A stretch of 64,000 bases of DNA, from NCBI RefSeq assembly GCF_044324875.1, contig NZ_CP172185.1; one strand, 5' to 3'. The stretch is from Escherichia coli. Its GTDB lineage: Bacteria > Pseudomonadota > Gammaproteobacteria > Enterobacterales > Enterobacteriaceae. A program made the translations under genes and the position numbers. Below the pieces are notes generated by a model, which saw only the letters and a list, made by a program, of their open reading frames with translations, made no database searches and was not told the origin of the DNA. Position 1 is the first letter of the stretch. Every line of letters starts with the position of its first letter. Positions 2,470-53,131 of this stretch are shown here, piece after piece.

Positions 2470-3115
2470 AGTCTAACCGTTAAGAACACGTTCCCGAGAT
2501 GAGCGTTTCCGTTGTCGCTCATGTAAAACATGTTTTCCAGCTCACTTACTCTTGGTGAAGTCAGGAAACCCGGCGTTAAGGAGCAGATCGTTGAAATGGC
2601 ACATAACGGCGCAGGTGTCCGTGATACCCATGAACACTGAAAATCGGCATCAATACCGTCATACGGACATTAAAAATGTTTTCGCCCCGGCGGATAACAT
2701 CTACGCCAGTCGTTCACGCTGATGTTGCCCTTATCTTTGAAACTTGATGAGCAGTTAAATTTCGTTGGCAGCAAGGCGCAACAACACTGGTCTGCTTACA
2801 ACACTAAATTGCGGTGTGTTGGCTTATTCTTTCGGGCCACGGAATGATGAGACCTGTCGGGAACTGTTAGCCCTGTTGACTTCGTTCTATATCGGCATAG
2901 TGACCAGCAATGACAGGGGCTGCAACGTCAGAGAAGTGACGAAGGAGAAATACCTGACCGGTAAAATATTCACGCAACCTATTGAACTTAACAACCTGCC
3001 CCTCCGCACCCGCATCAAGCGGCTGGCACGTAAAACAATCTGCTTCTCGCGTTCCGTGAAAATCAACGAAAAAGTCATCGGTTCCGTCATTGAAAAGAAC
3101 ATGTTCTACTGATTG
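2470..3115 (+). mobile_element. Degenerate IS1-family element remnant
   Basis: 2765..3112 translation aligns to the C-terminal half of IS1 InsB (...RLARKTICFSRSVKINEKVIGSVIEKNMFY); upstream frame has InsA-like Cys-rich remnants broken by stops. Confidence 0.5.
2765..3112 (+). pseudogene. IS1-family InsB-like transposase, C-terminal fragment
   Basis: Motif-level similarity to IS1 InsB C-terminus; N-terminal half missing. Confidence 0.5.
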
Positions 3116-3411: not shown

Positions 3412-4646
3412 TTGCCAAAGGTCACCGCCATGGACGAAAGGTCCCTCTACGCTCATATTATCAACATGACCGCTCCATGGCAGGTTAAATATCTTTCTCT
3501 CGATGAAAACGCCGGTTCTGTTACCGTCACAGTTGGAATCGCTAAAAATGCCCGGTTAGCCTGTCCGACCTGCGGTAAATCCTGTTCTGTTCACGATCAC
3601 CGTCATCGTAAATGGCGTCATCTTGATATCTGCCAGTTCACCACTATTGTCGAAGCCGATGTGCCCCGCATTATGTGCCCGGAGCATGGCTGCCAGACGT
3701 TGCTAGTTCCCTGGGCTGGCCCCGGAAGGCGGTATACGCTGCTGTTCGACTCGTTCTCTCATGGCTGAAAATCAGCACTGTTGATGCTGTAAGGAAACAA
3801 CTTAAGCTCAGCTGGAATGCGGTTGACGGCATTATGACCCGGGCAGTTAAGCGAGGTCTTGCCCGGATAAAAAAGCCATTATCCGCCCGTCATATGAATG
3901 TGGATGAGGTCGCCTTTAAAAAAGGACATTGTTATATAACTGTGATCTCCGATCGCGATGGTCGTGCACTGGCCTTAACGGACGATCGTGGCACAGAGAG
4001 CCTCGCCGGCTATCTTCGCACGCTTACTGACGGGCAGTTGCTGGCTATCAAAACGCTCTCAATGGACATGAATGCAGGCTGTATAAGAGCAGCGCGTATC
4101 CACTTACCCTGTGCGGTTGAGAAAATCGCCTTCGACCGCTTCCATGTAGCAAAGCAACTTGGTGAAGTGGTTGATAAAATCCGTCAGGATGAACATCCAC
4201 ACCTCCCTGTTGAAAGTCGGCGTCAGGCAAAGGGGACCCGCTTCCTGTGGCAGTACAACGATAAATGGATGACCGAATCCAGGCAGGAAAAGCTGATATG
4301 GCTGCGTGCACAGATGAAGCTGACAAGCCTGTGCTGGGCGCTGAAAGAGCTGGCAAAGAATATCTGGAACAGGCCATGAAGTGAGGAAAGACGTAATGAG
4401 TGGGAGAGATTGCTGGCTCTGGCGGCCAACAGTGACATTACTATGATGAAAAACGCCACGAAAACGATAGGAAAAAGGCTGTATGGGATCCTGAATGCCA
4501 TGCGACACCGTGTCTCAAACGGAAACGCGGAGGCGCTTAACAGTAAGCTCAGGCTGCTGAGGATAAAAGCTAGGGGATACCGCAATCGGGAACGCTTTAA
4601 GCTGGGCGTGATGTTCCACTACGGGAAACTGAATATGGCGTTTTGA
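3412..4646 (+). pseudogene. ISL3-family transposase, split into three frames
   Basis: ORFs 3412..3768, 3675..4379, 4410..4646 together give N-terminal zinc finger (CPTCGK...CPEHGC), DDE core (MNVDEVAFKKGHCYITVISD...DRFHVAKQL) and typical C-terminus. Confidence 0.8.
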
Positions 4647-45407: not shown

Positions 45408-47319
45408 TCACTCCTCCGGACAGCTTCGCTGCCAGTTCTTTAAGGGTTGGCCGGGTCGTCTCTTCTTCCCGGGATTTTGCCAGTACAGCCAGATCAAGCT
45501 GCCAGCGTTGCACGGACACACGTAATGCCGCGTAGGCATACACCAGGCAGTCCAGCGCTTCGTTACGCCGCTTTTTGTTATCCCACAGCAGACGCATCTT
45601 TCCTTTTTCCCACTTCTCCACAAGCTCTTCCGCGACCAGTTGCTGCGCCTCTGTCTGCGAAAAAATCTCCGGATCATCAGGAAAACGGATAGCATACGAC
45701 GTGGATTCATCCGCAGGCGTGGGAGCGGCTTTCATACGGGCATAGAGAATTTCTTTTGCGGTGTCTGTCCCCACTTCACACAGATACACGCCCCGCTGAT
45801 TGCGGGTTTTTGGCATGGTGATCACCGGCTTGCCATAGACAGATGCGCCTTTTACCGGCAGCACCCGGAAAACACCGTGTTTTTTTGACCTCTGATAAAC
45901 GATTTCTCCATCGATCCCCCCGATGTCCCAGCAGACACGGGAAATGGTCATTTCGGTTCCGTCTGCATGGCAGTATTTTTTGTTGATCGCTGCATCCACA
46001 CGTAACAGCGTCTCTTCCTCATCGGGACGCCCCATAATAATGATTTTATCCACCAGAAAGGCTTCCTCTCCCGGAGCCCATCCCCAGACATACATCTCAA
46101 AACGGTTTCGCTGCGAGTCAATGCCCGCCGTCAGATAAACCACCCGGGCAGGCACCGCCGCCGTGTAACGCACAACCTTATCCATCAGTACCTGGTGATC
46201 GAGTTTTTCGCCCACGGCCTCTTCCCAGGTCTCGCCCAGCGTGGTGTTCACAAAGGTTTTCAGGCCGTTGGGATCTTTCAGTGCATCCAGCCAGTCATAG
46301 ACTATCTGTACCCAGGTGGTGAACGGACTGTACGCCGTCCAGATATGGAAAGTGATGGAGCGCGGCGGCGGAATTTCATCACCCCGGGCGCTGAAAAACA
46401 TCAGGCCGTCACGGGTCCACATCCCCGTGTTTTCACAGATCCACCGCCCGTTACTCTGGTCAAGCTCAGACTGATGGATCACACAGCCATGATGCTCACA
46501 AAGGTAGAAAACGCTTTCGGGGCTGTCCTTCTCCCATTTAAGGCCAAAAGGCGTGGATTCATCGCCAAATTTCAGATACTGCGCCTCCCCACAGTGCGGG
46601 CAGGGCACATAAAAACGCATGAAATGTGCCGACTCGTTAGCGGCTTTTTCGATCTGGCAGGAGCCTTTGATTTTAGGCGTCGAGCCGCGAATGGATTTTG
46701 GCCATACAGAGCCCTCAATACGCTTATCCCCCAGCAGGGTTGGCGAGCCCTCTTTTTCAACATCAGGTTCAAACGATGAGAGTTCGTCATAGCAGACCAC
46801 GTCCACGGATTTTTCACGGTAGTTTTTTGCTGCCGCACCACCCAGGCACCAGAAGCCCACACCCGATGAAAAGCGTTTCAGCGTGAGAGTATTGTCACGA
46901 TGTTTACGCCCCAGCCATGGAGAAAGGTCTTTCAGACATGACACATCCCGAATCGTCGCCTCCACGTGAGACTTCATAAAATCTTCAGCGGCAGAATCCG
47001 TGGGCTGAAAAAGCAGACTGTTTCGGGATTTATGCTCAATAAAATACCCGACCACCCCCAGCAACATCTTTGTATAACCAATACGGGCAGATTTAATCAG
47101 GTTAACAGTGCGAATCAGATCGTTGCCCATACAGTTCATGATGGCGATCTGGAACGGCAGCGTTTTCCATTCTCCCTCACCATATGAAGATTCTTTAGGC
47201 AGATAATAATTTTGATCAGCCCATTCAACTGCCGTCACCGGCAATGCCCTTATCAGGGGCTGTAATGCTGTTGTGACAGCACTCATCATATTATTCAGTT
47301 GTTGCTCTGATATATTCAT
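45391..47319 (-). CDS. Terminase large subunit (lambda gpA-like)
   Basis: Start refined to MNISEQQL (642 aa); conserved blocks match lambda A. Confidence 0.92.
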   Translation of the reverse strand: MNISEQQLNNMMSAVTTALQPLIRALPVTAVEWADQNYYLPKESSYGEGEWKTLPFQIAIMNCMGNDLIRTVNLIKSARIGYTKMLLGVVGYFIEHKSRNSLLFQPTDSAAEDFMKSHVEATIRDVSCLKDLSPWLGRKHRDNTLTLKRFSSGVGFWCLGGAAAKNYREKSVDVVCYDELSSFEPDVEKEGSPTLLGDKRIEGSVWPKSIRGSTPKIKGSCQIEKAANESAHFMRFYVPCPHCGEAQYLKFGDESTPFGLKWEKDSPESVFYLCEHHGCVIHQSELDQSNGRWICENTGMWTRDGLMFFSARGDEIPPPRSITFHIWTAYSPFTTWVQIVYDWLDALKDPNGLKTFVNTTLGETWEEAVGEKLDHQVLMDKVVRYTAAVPARVVYLTAGIDSQRNRFEMYVWGWAPGEEAFLVDKIIIMGRPDEEETLLRVDAAINKKYCHADGTEMTISRVCWDIGGIDGEIVYQRSKKHGVFRVLPVKGASVYGKPVITMPKTRNQRGVYLCEVGTDTAKEILYARMKAAPTPADESTSYAIRFPDDPEIFSQTEAQQLVAEELVEKWEKGKMRLLWDNKKRRNEALDCLVYAYAALRVSVQRWQLDLAVLAKSREEETTRPTLKELAAKLSGGVNGYSR

Positions 47320-47800
47320 CGAGTAAATCCGGTAATTTATCCCCTGCCCGCGCACACTGATTTGCCCCCTTCGCAATAAGGGTTTTCAGATGGTCAAGAT
47401 GGCGCGGTGTTAAATCAGGAAACTGTCGTTGCATGGATAAAGGGATGGAATCAAGCGTACTGGATAACGCCATTGCCAGCTTGCTGAGGGCAAAAATACA
47501 GAATCCGGTGTCAATAAGTTTTCCTTTTGACACCTCATTTTTTAACTGCTGTGTAACAGCCTGTTCTGCTGTCAGTTCCCATCTGGCAATAAGCAATTTC
47601 TCCTCATAGTCGTCTTCGCTATCGCCATCAGGCACATCGTTTTTACTTCTTCTCAGATACGATATGTAAAAATCACGCCAGGCATCCAGATCCAGTTGCC
47701 CTCGCTTATTCGATATCGGGGCACCCGGCAATTTCTGCAGTCTGCGAAGCTGGCGATCGGTCAGACTCAAATGCCTGGCAACTTCAGTCTGCGTAGCCAC
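47291..47800 (-). CDS. Terminase small subunit (lambda Nu1-like)
   Basis: 169 aa; winged-HTH N-terminus; overlaps the start of A as in lambda. Confidence 0.88.
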   Translation of the reverse strand: MATQTEVARHLSLTDRQLRRLQKLPGAPISNKRGQLDLDAWRDFYISYLRRSKNDVPDGDSEDDYEEKLLIARWELTAEQAVTQQLKNEVSKGKLIDTGFCIFALSKLAMALSSTLDSIPLSMQRQFPDLTPRHLDHLKTLIAKGANQCARAGDKLPDLLDEYIRATTE

Positions 47801-47999
47801 TGTTCACCTCGCAAAAAATCTCCCCTCATGCGTTTTAAACATGCATCTTGCGAGCAACTTTATGCAAACGCACGCATATGTCCGGTTTGTTTGTACATTT
47901 TTTGCACATGTCCGGTTCGCAGAAAGCATGTTTTTATATTTTTCATATAGTTAACTTGCAGAGAAACCGGACATGGATCCCGGAAAATTTTCATAAATA

Positions 48000-48035
48000 G
48001 CGAAAACGCGCGAGGTCGACGCCCCGTAACGGGCC
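48000..48035 (-). other. cos site (cosN cohesive-end sequence GGGCGTCGACCT at 48013..48024, with cosB-like flank)
   Basis: Minus strand reads ttacggggcgtcgacctcgcgcgttttcgctatttatgaaaattttccgg, near-identical to the lambda cos region; 224 bp upstream of Nu1. Confidence 0.8.
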
Positions 48036-48174
48036 GGATTGCCGGAAAGGACCCGAAAAAACGAGAATAATTATCACTTACAGCAAGAATCGAATCTGAT
48101 CTATTCTGATGCTTGCTATTATGTGCCGGCACAAGTGCGTCGTTTACCGTCATTTCACACAGAGGCATCATCAA

Positions 48175-48426
48175 ATGAAAATCAGAAATATTCTCGCTAT
48201 CTCCCTTGCAACATCATCCTTCAGTTGCCTGGCATTTAAACCCTCGCCCAATGTGCTACCAGGACCAACGAATCAACTAACTGCGGTAGAAAGTAAAATT
48301 ATCGGACATTTTTATGCCCCACACAGTGCATTACCCGGAACAACCATCACAGGGACATGTGACGCCTCCCCCATTCCGGGATGCACCTGTCCGTTTTGTA
48401 CTATGCTGCGTAGCCAAAACCGATAA
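48175..48426 (+). CDS. Small secreted Cys-rich protein (signal peptide MKIRNILAISLATSSFSCLA)
   Basis: ATG with GAGG-type RBS; hydrophobic leader; opposite strand to the phage late operon. Confidence 0.4.
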   Translation: MKIRNILAISLATSSFSCLAFKPSPNVLPGPTNQLTAVESKIIGHFYAPHSALPGTTITGTCDASPIPGCTCPFCTMLRSQNR

Positions 48427-48790
48427 CATCCGCATTTACCTGGTATTCCATGATGAGTTCACGCAGCGACTGATAGAGGAAGGAAAGATGGTTAGCAAAA
48501 GCAAAGGCGCATTGCCGCCGCATGCTGCAGGCATTGCAACAGACGAGAGCAGATATTTTTGACCAGTTGGAAAACTGCCAGCATACTTTGCCCGAGCATA
48601 TCGCCATCTCATCGGAAACCAGTGCAACTCTTATTCATCGGGTTACACCAGAGAAAAAGAAGAAATGAACAGTGAGGCGTTGTGTGGCATACAACGCCTT
48701 CTTCCATCATTTCTCGTCAGCCATGACAAAAATATAACCGCTGGCTCTTTCATTTTTCTCCTGCTTCCAGCCCCTCTCTACCTGGAAGCA

Positions 48791-49117
48791 TCAGGGACGT
48801 GATGGCGTAAAGATAAATTGTCTCTTCACTCCCTGACGGGGACTATTCTTTTCAAATCTCCATTTCGCCATGGCCTTCACCACTTCATCACGAAACAAAT
48901 TATGAGGCTCTGAGCGGAGAAAAACGATCCGTGTCACAGTCCCGTCAGCACCAATATCGAACTTAACCTCAACCAGCCCCTTGATATAATTTGCTGCAGC
49001 ATATTCCGGATATCGTGGATACACCGTCACTAATTGCCGGGGCTCATCAGCTTTTTGCTGCGAGCATCCCACTGCCAGGGCAGATAACAGAAAAAGTAGT
49101 GAAAGGCGTCTTTTCAT
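48791..49117 (-). CDS. Lipoprotein with TonB C-terminal-like domain
   Basis: Signal peptide plus Cys (MKRRLSLLFLLSALAVGC); C-terminal 75 aa align motif-by-motif with the E. coli TonB C-terminal domain. Confidence 0.6.
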   Translation of the reverse strand: MKRRLSLLFLLSALAVGCSQQKADEPRQLVTVYPRYPEYAAANYIKGLVEVKFDIGADGTVTRIVFLRSEPHNLFRDEVVKAMAKWRFEKNSPRQGVKRQFIFTPSRP

Positions 49118-49548
49118 TTTTATTCCTACGGGTCTTATTCTGACAATATATCCTGTGTTCCAGACTGCCACATCACCACATCCTGTGCCATTATCTGACT
49201 CACATTACATACATCGCATCAGGATACAGTAGTAGCACTTTCTGTAATACAGCTTCCGGTTTCTTCCACCATCGCACCGGACAGGCGACTATGAGGGATA
49301 AACCCGCGAATCATTAACGCGGTAAAAACCCGGTGTACATCGTTTTTGATTATTCCCGCACACTCGCGCAGAAGGAGTTCCCCGTCGGGCTACGGTTTCT
49401 GTTCATACGGGAATACGGCGACTATATAGCGAATGATGTGTCAGGCTTGAATACCTTTATCCGTTAAAAGGGATATCAATTAAGTTATCCCGTACAGGGT
49501 ATAAGCCATTATCAAAGCCACTCTGTAGCGAATGGCTTTTGTAATGGA

Positions 49549-49998
49549 CTATTTAATTAGTGATGCTGCGTATTCGATTAGATATAACTTAGGTGCCAGC
49601 CAGATTTTTAACCATGTCATATTGGTTACTGCACAAATAATAAAAATCCCCCACATAGTCAAAACTCCAACCAATGGCACGATAAGAAGATTAATATCAC
49701 CTTTGCTATCCCAAACCATTGTCGGCCTGTATTTGGGATTTCCCTTCTCCCATGAATATCCTTCATCACCGATTTTACCTGTCTCAACTCTTTGGCACTG
49801 CTTCTTCATAAACCAGAAAACCAGAGGGATTGTTGAAATGGCTATTAATGTTTTAATCAGGCTATCAACCATATTCCATACCAGCAACTGATGAACAACA
49901 TCCGGAATCTGAGCCTGACTGAATGCAATGGCGGAATCAATTCCATCGCTGGCCTTCTTCAATAAATCAACAAGAATTTTATTTGCTTCTTCTTGCAT
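49549..49998 (-). CDS. Small inner-membrane protein encoded in AT-rich DNA (start at internal Met MQEEANKIL)
   Basis: Two or three predicted TM helices; sharp drop in GC at about 50000; upstream part of the 209-aa ORF is a different, GC-rich reading context. Confidence 0.45.
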   Translation of the reverse strand: MQEEANKILVDLLKKASDGIDSAIAFSQAQIPDVVHQLLVWNMVDSLIKTLIAISTIPLVFWFMKKQCQRVETGKIGDEGYSWEKGNPKYRPTMVWDSKGDINLLIVPLVGVLTMWGIFIICAVTNMTWLKIWLAPKLYLIEYAASLIK

Positions 49999-50174
49999 GT
50001 TTATATCCTGTAAGTTGTAAACCGGTTCGAACAAATAAGTTACCAAGAGAGACAAAGATACCGAGCAACCACGGTCGCACACGATGTTTATCGCAGTAAC
50101 CAGAACTGTCTGTGATTGTACCTGCGCATCCACGCTTACGGCAGGCACGTGGGATTCGTGATGGCATAAATACC

Positions 50175-50375
50175 TCACACCCTGTTCAGTTGAATGACGG
50201 GCTGATTCTCGATATGTTCTGCTGTCAGTCTGAAAGTCACAGTGACTGTTGGTGGCTCGCCTCCGCGTGACTCTGTCCTGGCGGAAAGCTGCCCCTCCAG
50301 TAACTCACCATTAACTGCAATCCCATACCCTGCGAAATGTTTACCGCGATAAAGTTTTGCCAGTTGGTAATTCAT
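50175..50375 (-). CDS. Hypothetical small protein
   Basis: 66 aa ORF translationally coupled (ATGA overlap) to the upstream small ORF. Confidence 0.4.
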   Translation of the reverse strand: MNYQLAKLYRGKHFAGYGIAVNGELLEGQLSARTESRGGEPPTVTVTFRLTAEHIENQPVIQLNRV

Positions 50376-50629
50376 TTGCCTGCATCCTCCAGCGACAACC
50401 CAATTCGCCCATGAAGCAATGTGGCCGATACAATCCCGGCATTACACTCAACGATTATATCTTCATCCGTGGCATCCACTTCATATATTCGTGAATAACA
50501 TTCCGTGCATTTACCACTGAATGTACCTTCAGCCAGAACACGACCACGCTGTAAAATCCGGAACGGGATTCTTCCATTAAAGAGCTTTGCGGTTACCAGT
50601 AATTTCTTCATACATTCTCCTGATAACAA
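50372..50629 (-). CDS. Hypothetical small protein with CxxC pair
   Basis: 85 aa ORF starting 6 bp after Rz stop. Confidence 0.4.
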   Translation of the reverse strand: MLSGECMKKLLVTAKLFNGRIPFRILQRGRVLAEGTFSGKCTECYSRIYEVDATDEDIIVECNAGIVSATLLHGRIGLSLEDAGK

Positions 50630-50634
50630 AAAGG

Positions 50635-51117
50635 CTACTTAATGCACTGAGTGCGGATATACTCCTGTGCCCCTTCCAGTTGCTTCTGCATCGTCATCAA
50701 CCGTTCTCTGAGGGTGAAATAATCCCGTTCAGCGGTGTCTGCCAGTCGGGGGCTGGTTGCATTATCCACGCTGGTGGGTCCGGTGGCTTCACGCACGGCT
50801 TCGGAGCAACTGGCATTGACCCGCAGGCGCTTACGGCCAGCGGCAACATCAGCGCGCAGAGTTTCATTTTCAGCTTTCGCATTGGCTAATTCTCTCGAGT
50901 ACTTTGCATCGAGCGCAGCAACATCACGCTGACGCTGCTGCATGTCAGTAATGGTGGCGGTCGCCTGCTTCAGTTCACTGACTTTTTTATCACGCTGTTC
51001 TTTGTAGGCTATGGCGTTATCACGGTAATGATTGACCGCCAACGACAGGCAGACGATGATGCAGATAACCAGAGCATAAATAATCGCGGCGACTCTGCTC
51101 ACTGATCTATCCCCCAA
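50635..51117 (-). CDS. Rz i-spanin
   Basis: 160 aa with N-terminal TM and coiled-coil; near-identical blocks to lambda Rz. Confidence 0.92.
50697..50882 (-). CDS. Rz1 o-spanin lipoprotein, embedded in Rz in +1 frame
   Basis: 61 aa with lipobox and proline-rich core (…[30 protein letters not shown]). Confidence 0.9.
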
Positions 51118-51632
51118 CAGGCTAATGCGCTTTCCTGGTCACGACGAATAACCTGTCCATAGCAGTTATTTGAACGTATGCGGCAATCGCGCCCACCATC
51201 TTTTATCCACCAGCGAATCGCCTCGCATGCGCCCTTACGATCACCGGCATTCAGCCGCTTATAAAACGTCGACGGGAAACACTTACCGGGGCCAATGTTA
51301 TAGGGACAGAATGACGCAATACCCGCTTTCTGTGCTTCGGTCAGTGGAACTTTAATATTGCGCTCCACCCATGCCAGCGCCTTATCACGCTCAATGGCAT
51401 TAACCTGAGCGCATTTTTCCTTCGACAGCTTCATTCCGGGAAAAACGTGTTTTCCATCCACCACCGTGGCACCGCGGCAGATGGTCCATATGCCAGAACC
51501 ATCGCGGTATGCCGTTGTGTGGTTACCCTCTTTTTCGTCCAGAAACTGATCAAGTATCTGAGGAGCAGATGCGCCAGCACCAATCAGCGCCAGAACGGCA
51601 GCCGACAGGCCGTATCTGATTTTTGCGTTCAT
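51099..51632 (-). CDS. SAR endolysin (phage 21-type lysozyme)
   Basis: 177 aa with weakly hydrophobic N-terminal signal-anchor ([16 protein letters not shown]) and lysozyme-like body. Confidence 0.85.
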
Positions 51633-51755
51633 GTATATTTATCAGGATCTAAAGGTTTATAATCCTGGATATATCAGGTATATAATCCAGTACCAGCATG
51701 TCTCATAAACATACCCGTTCAGGAAAACCAAACGACAACAGATGAGGCTTCAGAA

Positions 51756-52133
51756 ATGAACAGTAAAGAAAATTTGCGCAGTAGATTTTTGCAACTAATG
51801 ACAGAAAAAGTTAAATCAGCGCTACTTCCACTTATGGTGGATAATAACGAAGCAACGAGCAGCATCCTTGCAGACCCTTACGGTAAACTCTCGCATAAAA
51901 CGCTGGATATTATTATGAGTGCATTAACACCCCATATGCTTCAACACCTGAAACAAGATATTAACGCATGGGTGAATGAAGAATTGAGCCCCCCCTGTTC
52001 ATGGGACAGACATTATGCATGGCAGCAAAAAATGAGGATTTTCAATTCATTATCACTAAAGTTCAGAGAACCGAAACAGCGTCCCTTCCCTCTGGAATCA
52101 GACAAAAAACAACCTGATCCCACAGGCCCGTAA
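51756..52133 (+). CDS. Hypothetical protein inserted between holin and endolysin on the opposite strand
   Basis: 125 aa ORF with AT-rich upstream region and a downstream hairpin; no recognisable domain. Confidence 0.5.
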   Translation: MNSKENLRSRFLQLMTEKVKSALLPLMVDNNEATSSILADPYGKLSHKTLDIIMSALTPHMLQHLKQDINAWVNEELSPPCSWDRHYAWQQKMRIFNSLSLKFREPKQRPFPLESDKKQPDPTGP

Positions 52134-52213
52134 TATTTTGAATACCGTGATTATTGATATCACAATGAAAGCTATTCCGCACAGTTATGCCCTGCTCCCC
52201 ACGGGGCATGTCT

Positions 52214-52238
52214 CATGAAACGTTCCGGGCGTTTCATG
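52214..52238. terminator. Hairpin between convergent genes (catgaaacg-ttccggg-cgtttcatg)
   Basis: Perfect 9-bp inverted repeat between the 3' ends of the plus-strand ORF and the holin. Confidence 0.4.
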
Positions 52239-52289
52239 TTCCCGGATTTTGTTAAAAGGTATATTATCCCCTCACTCCCGGGATATTCG

Positions 52290-52562
52290 TCATATTTCTT
52301 TTGGTGCCTTTTTCGCAATCTCAGCCACAGCATGTGCCGTAGCCGGAACATTACCGGCATTAGTTCGTTCCAGAATTTCGAGCAATATGCGGGTTCGTTT
52401 TTCCTGCTCCCGTTTGTTAAGGCGATAAGTAAGAACGCCAAGAATGATACTGAACGCCACGCCGATAATAAATCCCCAATCCTGCAGTGACAGGCTGGCA
52501 AAGAACGCAACAAGTCCTGCGCTGCCGTATGCAGCGTTACTGTATCGTTCGTCCATTCTCAT
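52290..52562 (-). CDS. Holin (class II, phage 21 S-like)
   Basis: 90 aa with two TM segments and charged C-terminus, upstream of the endolysin. Confidence 0.7.
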   Translation of the reverse strand: MRMDERYSNAAYGSAGLVAFFASLSLQDWGFIIGVAFSIILGVLTYRLNKREQEKRTRILLEILERTNAGNVPATAHAVAEIAKKAPKEI

Positions 52563-52977: not shown

Positions 52978-53054
52978 TGGACCGCCACCGGGGACTCGAA
53001 CCCCGCACAGTCAGCTTAGAAGGCTGATGCTCTCTCATGATGAGCTAGTGGCGG
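52978..53054 (-). tRNA. tRNA-Arg (anticodon UCU)
   Basis: Folds by eye: 7-bp acceptor (CCGCCAC/GTGGCGG), D arm, anticodon loop CTTCTAA, T arm CGGGG-TTCGAGT-CCCCG. Confidence 0.7.
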
Positions 53055-53055
53055 T

Positions 53056-53131
53056 TGGTGGCCCTTGCTGGATTTGAACCAGCGACCTGGCGATTATGAG
53101 TCGCTCGCTCTCACCACTGAGCTAAAGGGCC
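53056..53131 (-). tRNA. tRNA-Ile2 (anticodon CAU), ileX/ileZ-like
   Basis: GGCCCTTTAGCTCAGTGGTGAGAGCGAGCGACTCATAATCGCCAGGTCGCTGGTTCAAATCCAGCAAGGGCCACCA; very close to E. coli ileX. Confidence 0.8.

What the first reader, a model, noticed from the sequence alone, without database searches (positions are those of the whole stretch)
50175..50629. Two translationally coupled small genes immediately after Rz
ORFs of 85 and 66 codons follow Rz with ATGA overlap. The first has a CxxC pair. They lie in phage-like GC content and are probably conserved accessory lysis or late genes of unknown function.
Basis: seen in the sequence. Interest (0 to 1): 0.3.

Follow-up and report, generated by a model that had tools for sequence, protein, structure and literature searches.

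The report
Two small prophage cargo genes after Rz
Two real but ordinary small phage genes of unknown function sit between the lysis genes and the DNA-packaging genes of an E. coli lambdoid prophage; they come from two separate gene families that recombination placed side by side, and nothing shows they take part in lysis.

Summary
On the minus strand, Rz (50635-51117) is followed by ORF g1 (50372-50629 from TTG; the conserved start is the ATG at 50611, giving 79 aa, with an AGGAG Shine-Dalgarno 5 nt upstream). g1 is followed by g2 (50175-50375, 66 aa), and the two overlap in ATGA.

Both are genuine genes:
- They have family-wide homologs: g1 matches phrog_2571 and g2 matches phrog_10235, both of unknown function.
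- dN/dS is 0.26-0.56 for g1 and 0.10-0.31 for g2.
- AlphaFold models are all-beta or mostly beta, with pLDDT 78 and 84.

They are not a conserved pair:
- g1 occurs in 1243 of 5426 complete E. coli genomes, and 1145 genomes keep the Rz-g1 junction.
- g2 occurs in 97 genomes, always glued to the start of an HNH endonuclease gene.
- Only 29 genomes join g1 to g2.
- The window's g1 C-terminal tail is lineage-specific and predicted disordered, so the ATGA overlap looks like a mosaic joint.

The second Cys of the CxxC is not conserved. Neither protein has a membrane segment, a signal peptide, its own promoter, or a match to any toxin-antitoxin or defence family. Deposited phage genomes lack both genes and keep a 27-nt g2 remnant.

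In other genera both families lie in the variable slot between the spanin gene and a glycosyltransferase-HNH-terminase block.

Verdict: dispensable late-operon cargo of unknown function. Low interest.

The parts
51099..51632 (-). Endolysin (R-type phage lysozyme), context gene
   Evidence: Pfam Phage_lysozyme 1.7e-24; phrog_7 5.5e-62
50635..51117 (-). Rz i-spanin. The ORF list gives a TTG start at 51117; RefSeq relatives annotate a 468-nt gene, equivalent to 50635-51102.
   Evidence: Pfam Phage_lysis 2.3e-50; phrog_13 2.3e-76; annotated 'lysis protein' in near-identical genomes
50697..50882 (-). Rz1-like o-spanin lipoprotein ORF embedded in Rz in another frame
   Evidence: ORF list: [20 protein letters not shown]..., a lipobox-like LAVSAC read from the sequence; 'Rz1 family lipoprotein' is annotated at this place in relatives
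50617..50621 (-). Shine-Dalgarno AGGAG, 5 nt upstream of the g1 ATG
   Evidence: Read from the sequence; retained as AGGAG or GGAG in the four other genomes aligned across the Rz-g1 spacer
50372..50611 (-). g1: a 79-aa soluble all-beta protein that matches the central domain of PHROG family 2571. Residues 66-79 are a lineage-specific tail.
   Evidence: phrog_2571 5.6e-24; 58 homolog clusters and 46 representatives in the exhaustive search; AF2 pLDDT 78 with six strands and residues 69-79 below 50; dN/dS 0.26-0.56
50372..50375 (-). ATGA overlap: g2 start and g1 stop
   Evidence: Read from the sequence; the same in strain 2014C-3075, where RefSeq annotates both genes
50386..50390 (-). GGAGG Shine-Dalgarno for g2, 10 nt upstream of its ATG, lying inside the g1 tail codons
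   Evidence: Read from the sequence. The GGAGGATGCA..AATG block is shared with strain M15, where g2 has no g1 upstream
50175..50375 (-). g2: a 66-aa soluble protein of four beta strands and one short helix, PHROG family 10235
   Evidence: phrog_10235 6.4e-29; 116 clusters across Enterobacterales; AF2 pLDDT 84; dN/dS 0.10-0.31; the g2-HNH junction is kept in 97 of 97 E. coli genomes that have g2
50080..50167 (-). Remnant of an HNH endonuclease gene: the first ~29 codons, starting 7 nt after the g2 stop, with GAGG overlapping the g2 stop. Homology to intact HNH genes ends near 50080.
   Evidence: phrog_144 HNH 1.1e-07 over residues 1-33 only; the alignment with intact HNH genes breaks after GATAAACATCGTG; RefSeq marks it as a partial pseudogene

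Best explanation
g1 and g2 are two unrelated, real, dispensable small cargo genes of a lambdoid prophage. They lie in the hypervariable slot between the lysis cassette and the packaging genes.

Shown:
- g1 is a soluble six-strand beta-sandwich protein. In E. coli it is inherited with the 3' end of Rz.
- g2 is a soluble small protein, mostly beta strands. In E. coli it is inherited with the 5' end of the HNH endonuclease gene that precedes HK97-type (P27-family) terminase genes.
- In the window's lineage, recombination joined an [S-R-Rz-g1] block to a [g2-HNH...] block inside the last codons of g1. This gave g1 a new, disordered 14-residue tail that contains g2's ribosome-binding site, and it created the ATGA overlap.
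- A later exchange cut the HNH gene after about 29 codons and installed lambda-type Nu1/A terminase genes.

Inferred:
- Both genes are transcribed only as read-through of the Q-antiterminated late transcript, because no promoter-like or terminator-like site lies between Rz and g2.
- g1 is translated from its own strong Shine-Dalgarno. g2 is translated from its own GGAGG, helped by termination-reinitiation at ATGA.
- Both proteins act in the cytoplasm late in infection by binding a partner macromolecule. They are not membrane-acting lysis effectors.
- For g2, the most likely partners are products of the neighbouring block (HNH/terminase or, in other genera, the glycosyltransferase pair). For g1, the most likely partner in other lineages is the phrog_4280 protein that usually follows it.

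The biochemical function of both remains untested.
For: Real genes: homologs, dN/dS below 1, confident compact models, strong ribosome-binding sites, and both annotated by RefSeq in strain 2014C-3075.

Unrelated to each other: BLASTP finds nothing and hhalign gives probability 0.1%.

Separate inheritance:
- g1 is in 1243 genomes, and 1145 keep the Rz-g1 junction.
- g2 is in 97 genomes, and all 97 keep the g2-HNH junction.
- Only 29 genomes have g1 joined to g2.
- g2 occurs without g1 behind different lysis cassettes (G749 and M15).
- g1 occurs without g2 in an O157:H7 prophage whose late region resembles Stx-converting phages, in H-19B, and in 20 Stx-converting phage records.

Mosaic joint: the g1 tail HGRIGLSLEDAGK is absent from the 74-aa family. 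Residues 69-79 have pLDDT below 50. The GGAGGATGCA..AATG block is shared with M15, where g2 has no g1 upstream.

Dispensable: PhiR49_2, Evi and vB_EcoM-606R7 join Rz to HNH. PhiR49_2 keeps only a 27-nt internal g2 fragment flanked by microhomologies.

Cargo slot in other genera: both families sit between the spanin gene and a GT486-GT199-HNH-TerS block. HK542 has a different small ORF in that position.

No own signals: the promoter and terminator scan finds nothing on the minus strand between 50175 and 51200. No Rfam match lies there.
Against: - No expression data were available, so late read-through and coupling are inferred from sequence alone.
- The tight Rz-g1 linkage (92% of genomes), and the position of several diverged g1 relatives just after spanin genes (L006-9), would also fit a lysis-related role.
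- Genome counts are not independent events, because many genomes share the same prophage by descent.
- I did not confirm that the phage records lacking the genes form plaques.
Confidence: 0.6

Rival explanations
1. Accessory lysis genes: g1, alone or with g2, tunes holin, endolysin or spanin action, for example as a cytoplasmic regulator of lysis timing.
Against: No transmembrane segment, lipobox or signal peptide (sequence). Phage genomes without the genes are deposited as complete. g1 relatives also lie upstream of the holin beside a GrlR-like gene and next to Ail/Lom-like and BamE-like genes. g2 follows HNH, not the lysis cassette, and is found behind three different lysis cassettes. The XepA score is no better than those for carbohydrate-binding modules or FlgD.
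Confidence: 0.12
2. g2 is a functional accessory of the neighbouring packaging-proximal block: a helper of the HNH-terminase cos endonuclease, or a partner or substrate of the glycosyltransferase pair. In this window, whose HNH gene is truncated, it would be an orphaned relic.
For: - The g2-HNH junction is kept in 97 of 97 E. coli genomes, with a 7-nt gap and the HNH Shine-Dalgarno over the g2 stop.
- g2 is directly adjacent to or overlaps HNH in Klebsiella phage KpF5, Yersinia phage P840 and metagenomic locus L015.
- In Citrobacter, Enterobacter and Serratia prophages g2 heads a g2-GT486-GT199-HNH-TerS array, and the 111-aa form overlaps the GT start by 13 nt.
- g2 shows strong purifying selection (dN/dS 0.10-0.31).
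Against: Only about 10% of E. coli genomes with this HNH 5' end have g2 (97 of 975). HK542, mEp390 and ECP1 have the GT-GT-HNH block with no g2 homolog detected by tblastn. HK542 carries a KilA-N/HK97 gp73-like ORF in that slot instead. The slot is narrow, so adjacency is partly forced. No structural or sequence similarity points to any DNA-binding or packaging protein.
Confidence: 0.2
3. The two overlapping small genes form a toxin-antitoxin, defence or anti-defence pair.
For: Two small genes with a 4-nt overlap is a typical toxin-antitoxin layout. Phage cargo slots often hold defence and counter-defence genes. g1 relatives have a recurrent small neighbour (phrog_4280) in five diverged lineages.
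Against: No hit in PADLOC, Pfam or NCBIfam for either protein. The g1-g2 pairing is rare (29 genomes), and each gene exists alone in many genomes. No own promoter was found. The genes were lost cleanly by deletion in phage genomes. No anti-defence library was available, so the anti-defence reading is untested rather than excluded.
Confidence: 0.08

Closest known systems
PHROG family 2571 (unknown function); full-length members are ~280-286 aa, e.g. the gene at 18054-18914 of Escherichia phage PhiR46_1
   Same: g1 matches profile positions 98-172 at E 5.6e-24. It shares the conserved pattern F.V.Q.G..L......SGK......Y.V.A.D. Those genes also lie between Rz and the terminase genes.
   Different: g1 is only the central ~70-residue beta-sandwich domain, standing alone. 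It lacks the family's N-terminal region (residues ~1-95, not characterised here) and the ~120-residue C-terminal region. The window's copy has a 5-residue loop deletion and a novel 14-residue tail.
PHROG family 10235 (unknown function), e.g. the Klebsiella phage KpF5 gene at 3767-4081
   Same: g2 covers the whole 67-column profile at E 6.4e-29. The position just upstream of an HNH endonuclease and the terminase genes is the same.
   Different: Many members outside E. coli are 98-112 aa, with an added C-terminal extension, and are followed by two glycosyltransferase genes. The window's copy is the short form, and its HNH neighbour is truncated.
Morons of lambdoid phages (bor, lom and the HK97/HK022 morons; Juhala et al. 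2000 and Hendrix et al. 2000, from my own knowledge)
   Same: Presence/absence polymorphism between otherwise near-identical phages, location at a module boundary in the late region, and dispensability.
   Different: Classical morons carry their own promoter and terminator and often differ in GC content. No such signals were found here, and GC is ordinary.
HNH endonuclease + terminase cos-packaging module of HK97-like phages (gp74; PMC3592412; Kala et al. 2014, from my own knowledge)
   Same: g2 sits in the slot just upstream of HNH, the position that the HK542 record's note describes as similar to HK97 gp73.
   Different: g2 has not been shown to take part in packaging. It is present in only about a tenth of E. 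coli genomes with this HNH. The window's prophage uses lambda Nu1/A-type terminase genes and keeps only an HNH stub.

Membership tests
PHROG 2571 (g1) | Significant match to the family HMM | tested here: met
   E 5.6e-24, but only profile positions 98-172 of 291. Full-length members score 1e-144 to 1e-164.
PHROG 10235 (g2) | Significant full-length match to the family HMM | tested here: met
   E 6.4e-29 over positions 4-66 of 67
Phage lysis proteins (holin, antiholin, spanin) | Membrane association: a transmembrane segment, SAR domain or lipoprotein signal | tested here: not met
   Neither sequence has a hydrophobic run of 15 or more residues or a lipobox (translations). The models are soluble beta proteins.
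Phage lysis proteins (holin, antiholin, spanin) | Constant association with the lysis cassette across relatives | tested here: inconclusive
   g1: 1145 of 1243 E. coli genomes keep the Rz junction, but relatives also lie upstream of the holin or near lom. g2 is found behind three unrelated lysis cassettes and always with HNH.
Phage lysis proteins (holin, antiholin, spanin) | Loss changes lysis | not testable with these tools
   Needs deletion mutants. The only indirect hint is that deposited phage genomes lack both genes.
Type II toxin-antitoxin pair | Conserved co-occurrence of the two genes | tested here: not met
   29 joined copies against 1243 genomes with g1 and 97 with g2
Type II toxin-antitoxin pair | Homology to a known toxin or antitoxin family, or to a defence protein | tested here: not met
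   No Pfam, NCBIfam or PADLOC hit at E up to 1
Moron (autonomous transcription unit) | Presence/absence polymorphism between related phages | tested here: met
   Rz is joined directly to HNH in PhiR49_2, Evi and 606R7
Moron (autonomous transcription unit) | Own promoter and terminator | tested here: not met
   The consensus scan finds none on the minus strand between Rz and the g2 stop. The scan is crude, so this is weak evidence.
Zinc-binding CxxC protein | Conserved Cys pairs | tested here: not met
   C38 is L or G in most homologs. C35 is replaced by A, T, S or V in distant homologs.
HNH-terminase packaging module accessory (g2) | Constant adjacency to HNH | tested here: inconclusive
   97 of 97 in E. 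coli and direct adjacency in KpF5, P840 and L015. But g2 is separated from HNH by two GT genes in other genera and is absent from about 90% of E. coli genomes with this HNH.

The most novel reading that the evidence does not exclude
The g2 family (phrog_10235, 116 clusters across Enterobacterales) is an unrecognised small working partner of the block it always heads. That block is either the HNH-terminase cos-cleavage machine or the GT486/GT199 glycosyltransferase pair, which has homologs in more than 500 mycobacteriophage records. Separately, g1 together with the phrog_4280 protein that follows it in five diverged lineages forms a conserved two-gene accessory system. Under this reading the window shows a hybrid in which each gene has lost its usual partner.
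Probability: 0.2. Interest if true: 0.45.

Novelty: new member of a known kind. Interest (0 to 1): 0.17.

Why it matters
It matters little for this window: these are routine 'hypothetical' phage genes, and proteins matching both at over 96% identity are already annotated in RefSeq. The useful outcome is a correction. The apparent coupled pair is a recombination joint between two modules, not an operon-like unit, so it should not be listed as a lysis accessory or a toxin-antitoxin candidate.

Two modest leads come out of the comparison. First, g2-family genes head a widespread g2-glycosyltransferase-glycosyltransferase-HNH-terminase array in Enterobacterales prophages. Second, g1-family genes are repeatedly followed by a phrog_4280 gene. 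Either lead could guide functional work on very common but uncharacterised prophage genes; g1 relatives are in 23% of complete E. coli genomes, including O157:H7 strains.

Tried and rejected
- **g1 and g2 as paralogs.** By eye both contain AKL[FY].G...F...G..L.EG. BLASTP found nothing and hhalign gave probability 0.1%, so this was rejected.
- **One frameshifted gene.** Rejected: each family has its own start and stop in many genomes, and no fused homolog exists. The 89-aa g1 in the 15 closest genomes comes from a 1-nt deletion near the g1 3' end.
- **Curated family and structure libraries.** Pfam, NCBIfam, PADLOC and PDB sequence searches gave nothing for either protein.
- **Fold searches.**
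  - g2 against BFVD gave nothing at E below 0.1.
  - The afdb50 library was unavailable.
- **RNA elements.** Rfam found none in the region.
- **Literature.** Searches by protein accession, PHROG id and phage name found nothing on these genes.
- **Zinc-binding CxxC.** Rejected on conservation.
- **Signal peptide in g1.** The sequence begins MKKLLVTAKL, but it is followed by charged residues and is modelled as a beta strand, so this was rejected.

Full report
**1. What is there**

All the relevant genes are on the minus strand. Reading in the direction of transcription:
- the endolysin (51099-51632; Pfam Phage_lysozyme 1.7e-24);
- Rz (50635-51117; Pfam Phage_lysis 2.3e-50), with an embedded Rz1-like lipoprotein ORF (50697-50882);
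- a 23-nt spacer containing AGGAG five bases before an ATG at 50611;
- ORF g1, ending in TGA at 50372-50374;
- ORF g2, starting at the ATG at 50375-50373, which is the ATGA overlap, and ending at 50175;
- seven bases later, an ATG at 50167 opening an HNH endonuclease gene. Only its first ~29 codons are homologous to intact HNH genes.

The '85 codons' figure comes from the mechanical TTG start at 50629. Nearly all homologs start at the Met equivalent to 50611, so the protein is 79 aa.

**2. Are they genes?**

Yes, on four lines of evidence:
- g1 has 58 homolog clusters in the word-indexed search. It has 46 representatives at 50% identity in the exhaustive profile search, down to about 35-40% identity.
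- g2 has 14 clusters with a single-sequence query and 116 with a profile. These span Escherichia, Salmonella, Citrobacter, Klebsiella, Enterobacter, Serratia, Raoultella, Hafnia, Pantoea, Rahnella and Rouxiella.
- Nei-Gojobori estimates give dN/dS 0.26-0.56 for g1 and 0.10-0.31 for g2 where dS is not saturated. Distant homologs have saturated synonymous sites but retain the protein.
- AlphaFold2 on the family alignments gives a six-strand all-beta fold for g1 (pLDDT 78, pTM 0.63, residues 69-79 below 50). For g2 it gives four strands plus a short helix (pLDDT 84).

RefSeq annotates both genes, with the 4-nt overlap, in strain 2014C-3075.

**3. What the families are**

- g1 matches only the central part (positions 98-172 of 291) of PHROG 2571. 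g2 matches PHROG 10235 end to end. Both are 'unknown function'.
- Pfam, NCBIfam, PADLOC and PDB sequence searches find nothing.
- g2 has no structural neighbour in PDB or BFVD.
- The two proteins are unrelated to each other.
- In the CxxC, C38 is Leu or Gly in most close homologs, and C35 is replaced by A, T, S or V further out. It is not a metal site.
- Neither protein has a hydrophobic segment or a signal peptide.

**4. They are not a conserved pair**

Counts are among 5426 complete E. coli genomes.

| Feature | Genomes |
|---|---|
| g1-like DNA (up to 6 copies per genome) | 1243 |
| Rz-g1 junction kept | 1145 |
| g2 | 97 |
| g2-HNH junction kept | 97 of 97 |
| This HNH 5' end, with or without g2 | 975 |
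| g1 joined to g2 | 29 |

Examples of each gene without the other:
- Strain G749 has Rz, an opposite-strand GNAT gene, then g2-HNH-TerS(P27)-TerL-portal.
- Strain M15 has a different lysis cassette (two holins and an M15 peptidase), then g2-HNH.
- An O157:H7 prophage (strain PA20) whose late region resembles Stx-converting phages has Rz-g1(74 aa), followed by other genes and a different HNH.
- H-19B and 20 Stx-converting phage records carry the same g1 type.

These are counts of genomes, not of independent events.

**5. The overlap is a mosaic joint**

- The usual g1 is 74 aa and ends ...LLPVY...LQPVC or similar. The window's g1 follows that family to about residue 65. It then has HGRIGLSLEDAGK, which no 74-aa member has and which is modelled as disordered.
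- Those tail codons contain g2's GGAGG ribosome-binding site.
- The block GGAGGATGCA..AATG upstream of g2 is shared with strain M15. There g2 has no g1 upstream and is preceded by what looks by eye like a hairpin followed by a T-run.
- The simplest reading is recombination between an [..Rz-g1] block and a [g2-HNH..] block within the end of g1.
- A second exchange cut HNH near 50080 and brought in low-GC cargo: a phrog_3054 membrane protein (49549-49998) and a TonB_C lipoprotein (48791-49117). It also brought lambda-type Nu1/A packaging genes.

**6. Dispensability**

- Phages PhiR49_2, Evi and vB_EcoM-606R7 join Rz directly to HNH.
- In PhiR49_2 a 27-nt internal piece of g2 (codons for YRGKHFAGY) survives between the two joints. 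Both joints show short microhomologies (CTTT..ATCG and CAGGGTrTG). g2 was therefore present and was then deleted.
- I did not verify that these deposited phages form plaques.
- In the 15 closest RefSeq genomes a 1-nt deletion eight bases before the g2 ATG extends g1 to 89 aa, and the annotation pipeline then drops g2.

**7. Context in other genera**

- Diverged g1 relatives lie after a DUF2570/LysC spanin cassette (L006-9). They also lie upstream of the holin next to a GrlR-like gene (L019), and near Ail/Lom-like and BamE-like genes (L021).
- In five diverged lineages (L005, L006-9, L021/22, L023 and E. coli SBF22) the g1-family gene is followed directly by a phrog_4280-family gene of about 70 aa. 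At least 35 E. coli genomes keep that junction. The window has no such gene.
- g2 relatives in Citrobacter, Enterobacter and Serratia prophages, and in the unassigned metagenomic loci L013 and L014, head an array: g2, a ~486-aa glycosyltransferase (phrog_1579), a ~197-199-aa glucosyltransferase (phrog_854), then HNH, TerS and TerL.
- g1-family genes occur upstream of the same array in L005 and L023.
- Phage HK542 has the GT-GT-HNH block with a different small ORF (KilA-N/HK97 gp73-like) in that slot.
- The 486-aa enzyme also hits 543 Mycobacterium phage records.
- The spanin-to-HNH/terminase interval is therefore a variable cargo slot, and g1 and g2 are two of its interchangeable occupants.

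**8. Expression and mechanism (inferred)**

- No sigma-70-like promoter and no intrinsic-terminator-like site lie on the minus strand between Rz and the end of g2. No Rfam family matches there.
- The genes should therefore be read through from the late promoter under Q antitermination. An antiterminator Q gene, two tRNA genes and a holin gene lie upstream.
- g1 has a strong Shine-Dalgarno of its own. g2 has GGAGG 10 nt upstream plus the ATGA overlap. The HNH stub has GAGG over the g2 stop.
- I commit to this reading: soluble late-expressed cargo proteins that act by binding a partner, not lysis effectors. For g2 the partner is probably a product of the HNH/terminase/GT block. For g1, in other lineages, it is probably the phrog_4280 protein.
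- What is shown: that they are genes, their separate inheritance, the mosaic joint and their dispensability.
- What is not shown: transcription, coupling and any binding partner.

**9. Rivals**

- A lysis-accessory role is kept at about 0.12, because of the tight Rz-g1 linkage.
- g2 as a true HNH/terminase or GT partner is at about 0.2.
- A toxin-antitoxin, defence or anti-defence pair is at about 0.08. Anti-defence could not be tested for lack of a library.

**10. Verdict**

The genes are new members of known, uncharacterised phage gene families. Interest is low (0.17).

Noticed in passing
window 50080-50167 (-), and 47291-50080: The HNH endonuclease gene is cut after about 29 codons. The packaging genes that follow are lambda Nu1/A type, which do not use HNH. 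This looks like a module swap that left an HNH stub (RefSeq marks it as a partial pseudogene).
   Followed up: partly
window 48791-49998 (-): Low-GC (36-41%) cargo lies between the HNH stub and the terminase genes: a 149-aa membrane protein (phrog_3054, 49549-49998) and a TonB_C-domain lipoprotein (48791-49117; Pfam TonB_C 3.8e-13). PHROG files the lipoprotein under 'Rz-like spanin' (phrog_1267), which looks like a mislabel.
   Followed up: no
window 52978-53131 (-): Two tRNA genes, Arg(TCT) and Met/Ile(CAT), lie in the late region upstream of the holin, as I recall from many lambdoid and Stx-type phages.
   Followed up: no
window 51633-52562: The holin gene (52290-52562, minus strand) is separated from the endolysin by about 650 bp. 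That gap holds an opposite-strand ORF (51756-52133, plus strand), which relatives annotate as a truncated pseudogene.
   Followed up: no
L005, L006-L009, L021-L023, L038: In five diverged lineages, g1-family genes are followed immediately by a ~70-aa phrog_4280-family gene (MFVAxGLKxDPDNxGWVLGWAVVR..PWHLVGVYATK). This is a recurrent two-gene unit of unknown function. It is absent from the window.
   Followed up: partly
L013, L014, L025-L036, L037 (HK542): A conserved block sits just after the lysis genes in many Enterobacterales prophages and in phages HK542, mEp390, ECP1 and ENT39118: a ~486-aa glycosyltransferase (phrog_1579), a ~198-aa glucosyltransferase (phrog_854), HNH and TerS. The large enzyme also matches 543 Mycobacterium phage records by tblastn. 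This raises the question of whether these enzymes glycosylate virion proteins in enterobacterial phages.
   Followed up: partly
L002 (PhiR49_2) about 3062-3110: A 27-nt internal fragment of g2 survives between Rz and HNH, flanked by short microhomologies. It is the footprint of two small deletions that removed the cargo.
   Followed up: yes
L003 / L024, equivalent to window about 50383: The 15 closest RefSeq genomes carry a 1-nt deletion (GGATGC-GGCA) that extends g1 to 89 aa (WP_032304101.1). It also makes the annotation pipeline drop the intact g2 ORF.
   Followed up: yes
[not shown]
   Followed up: no
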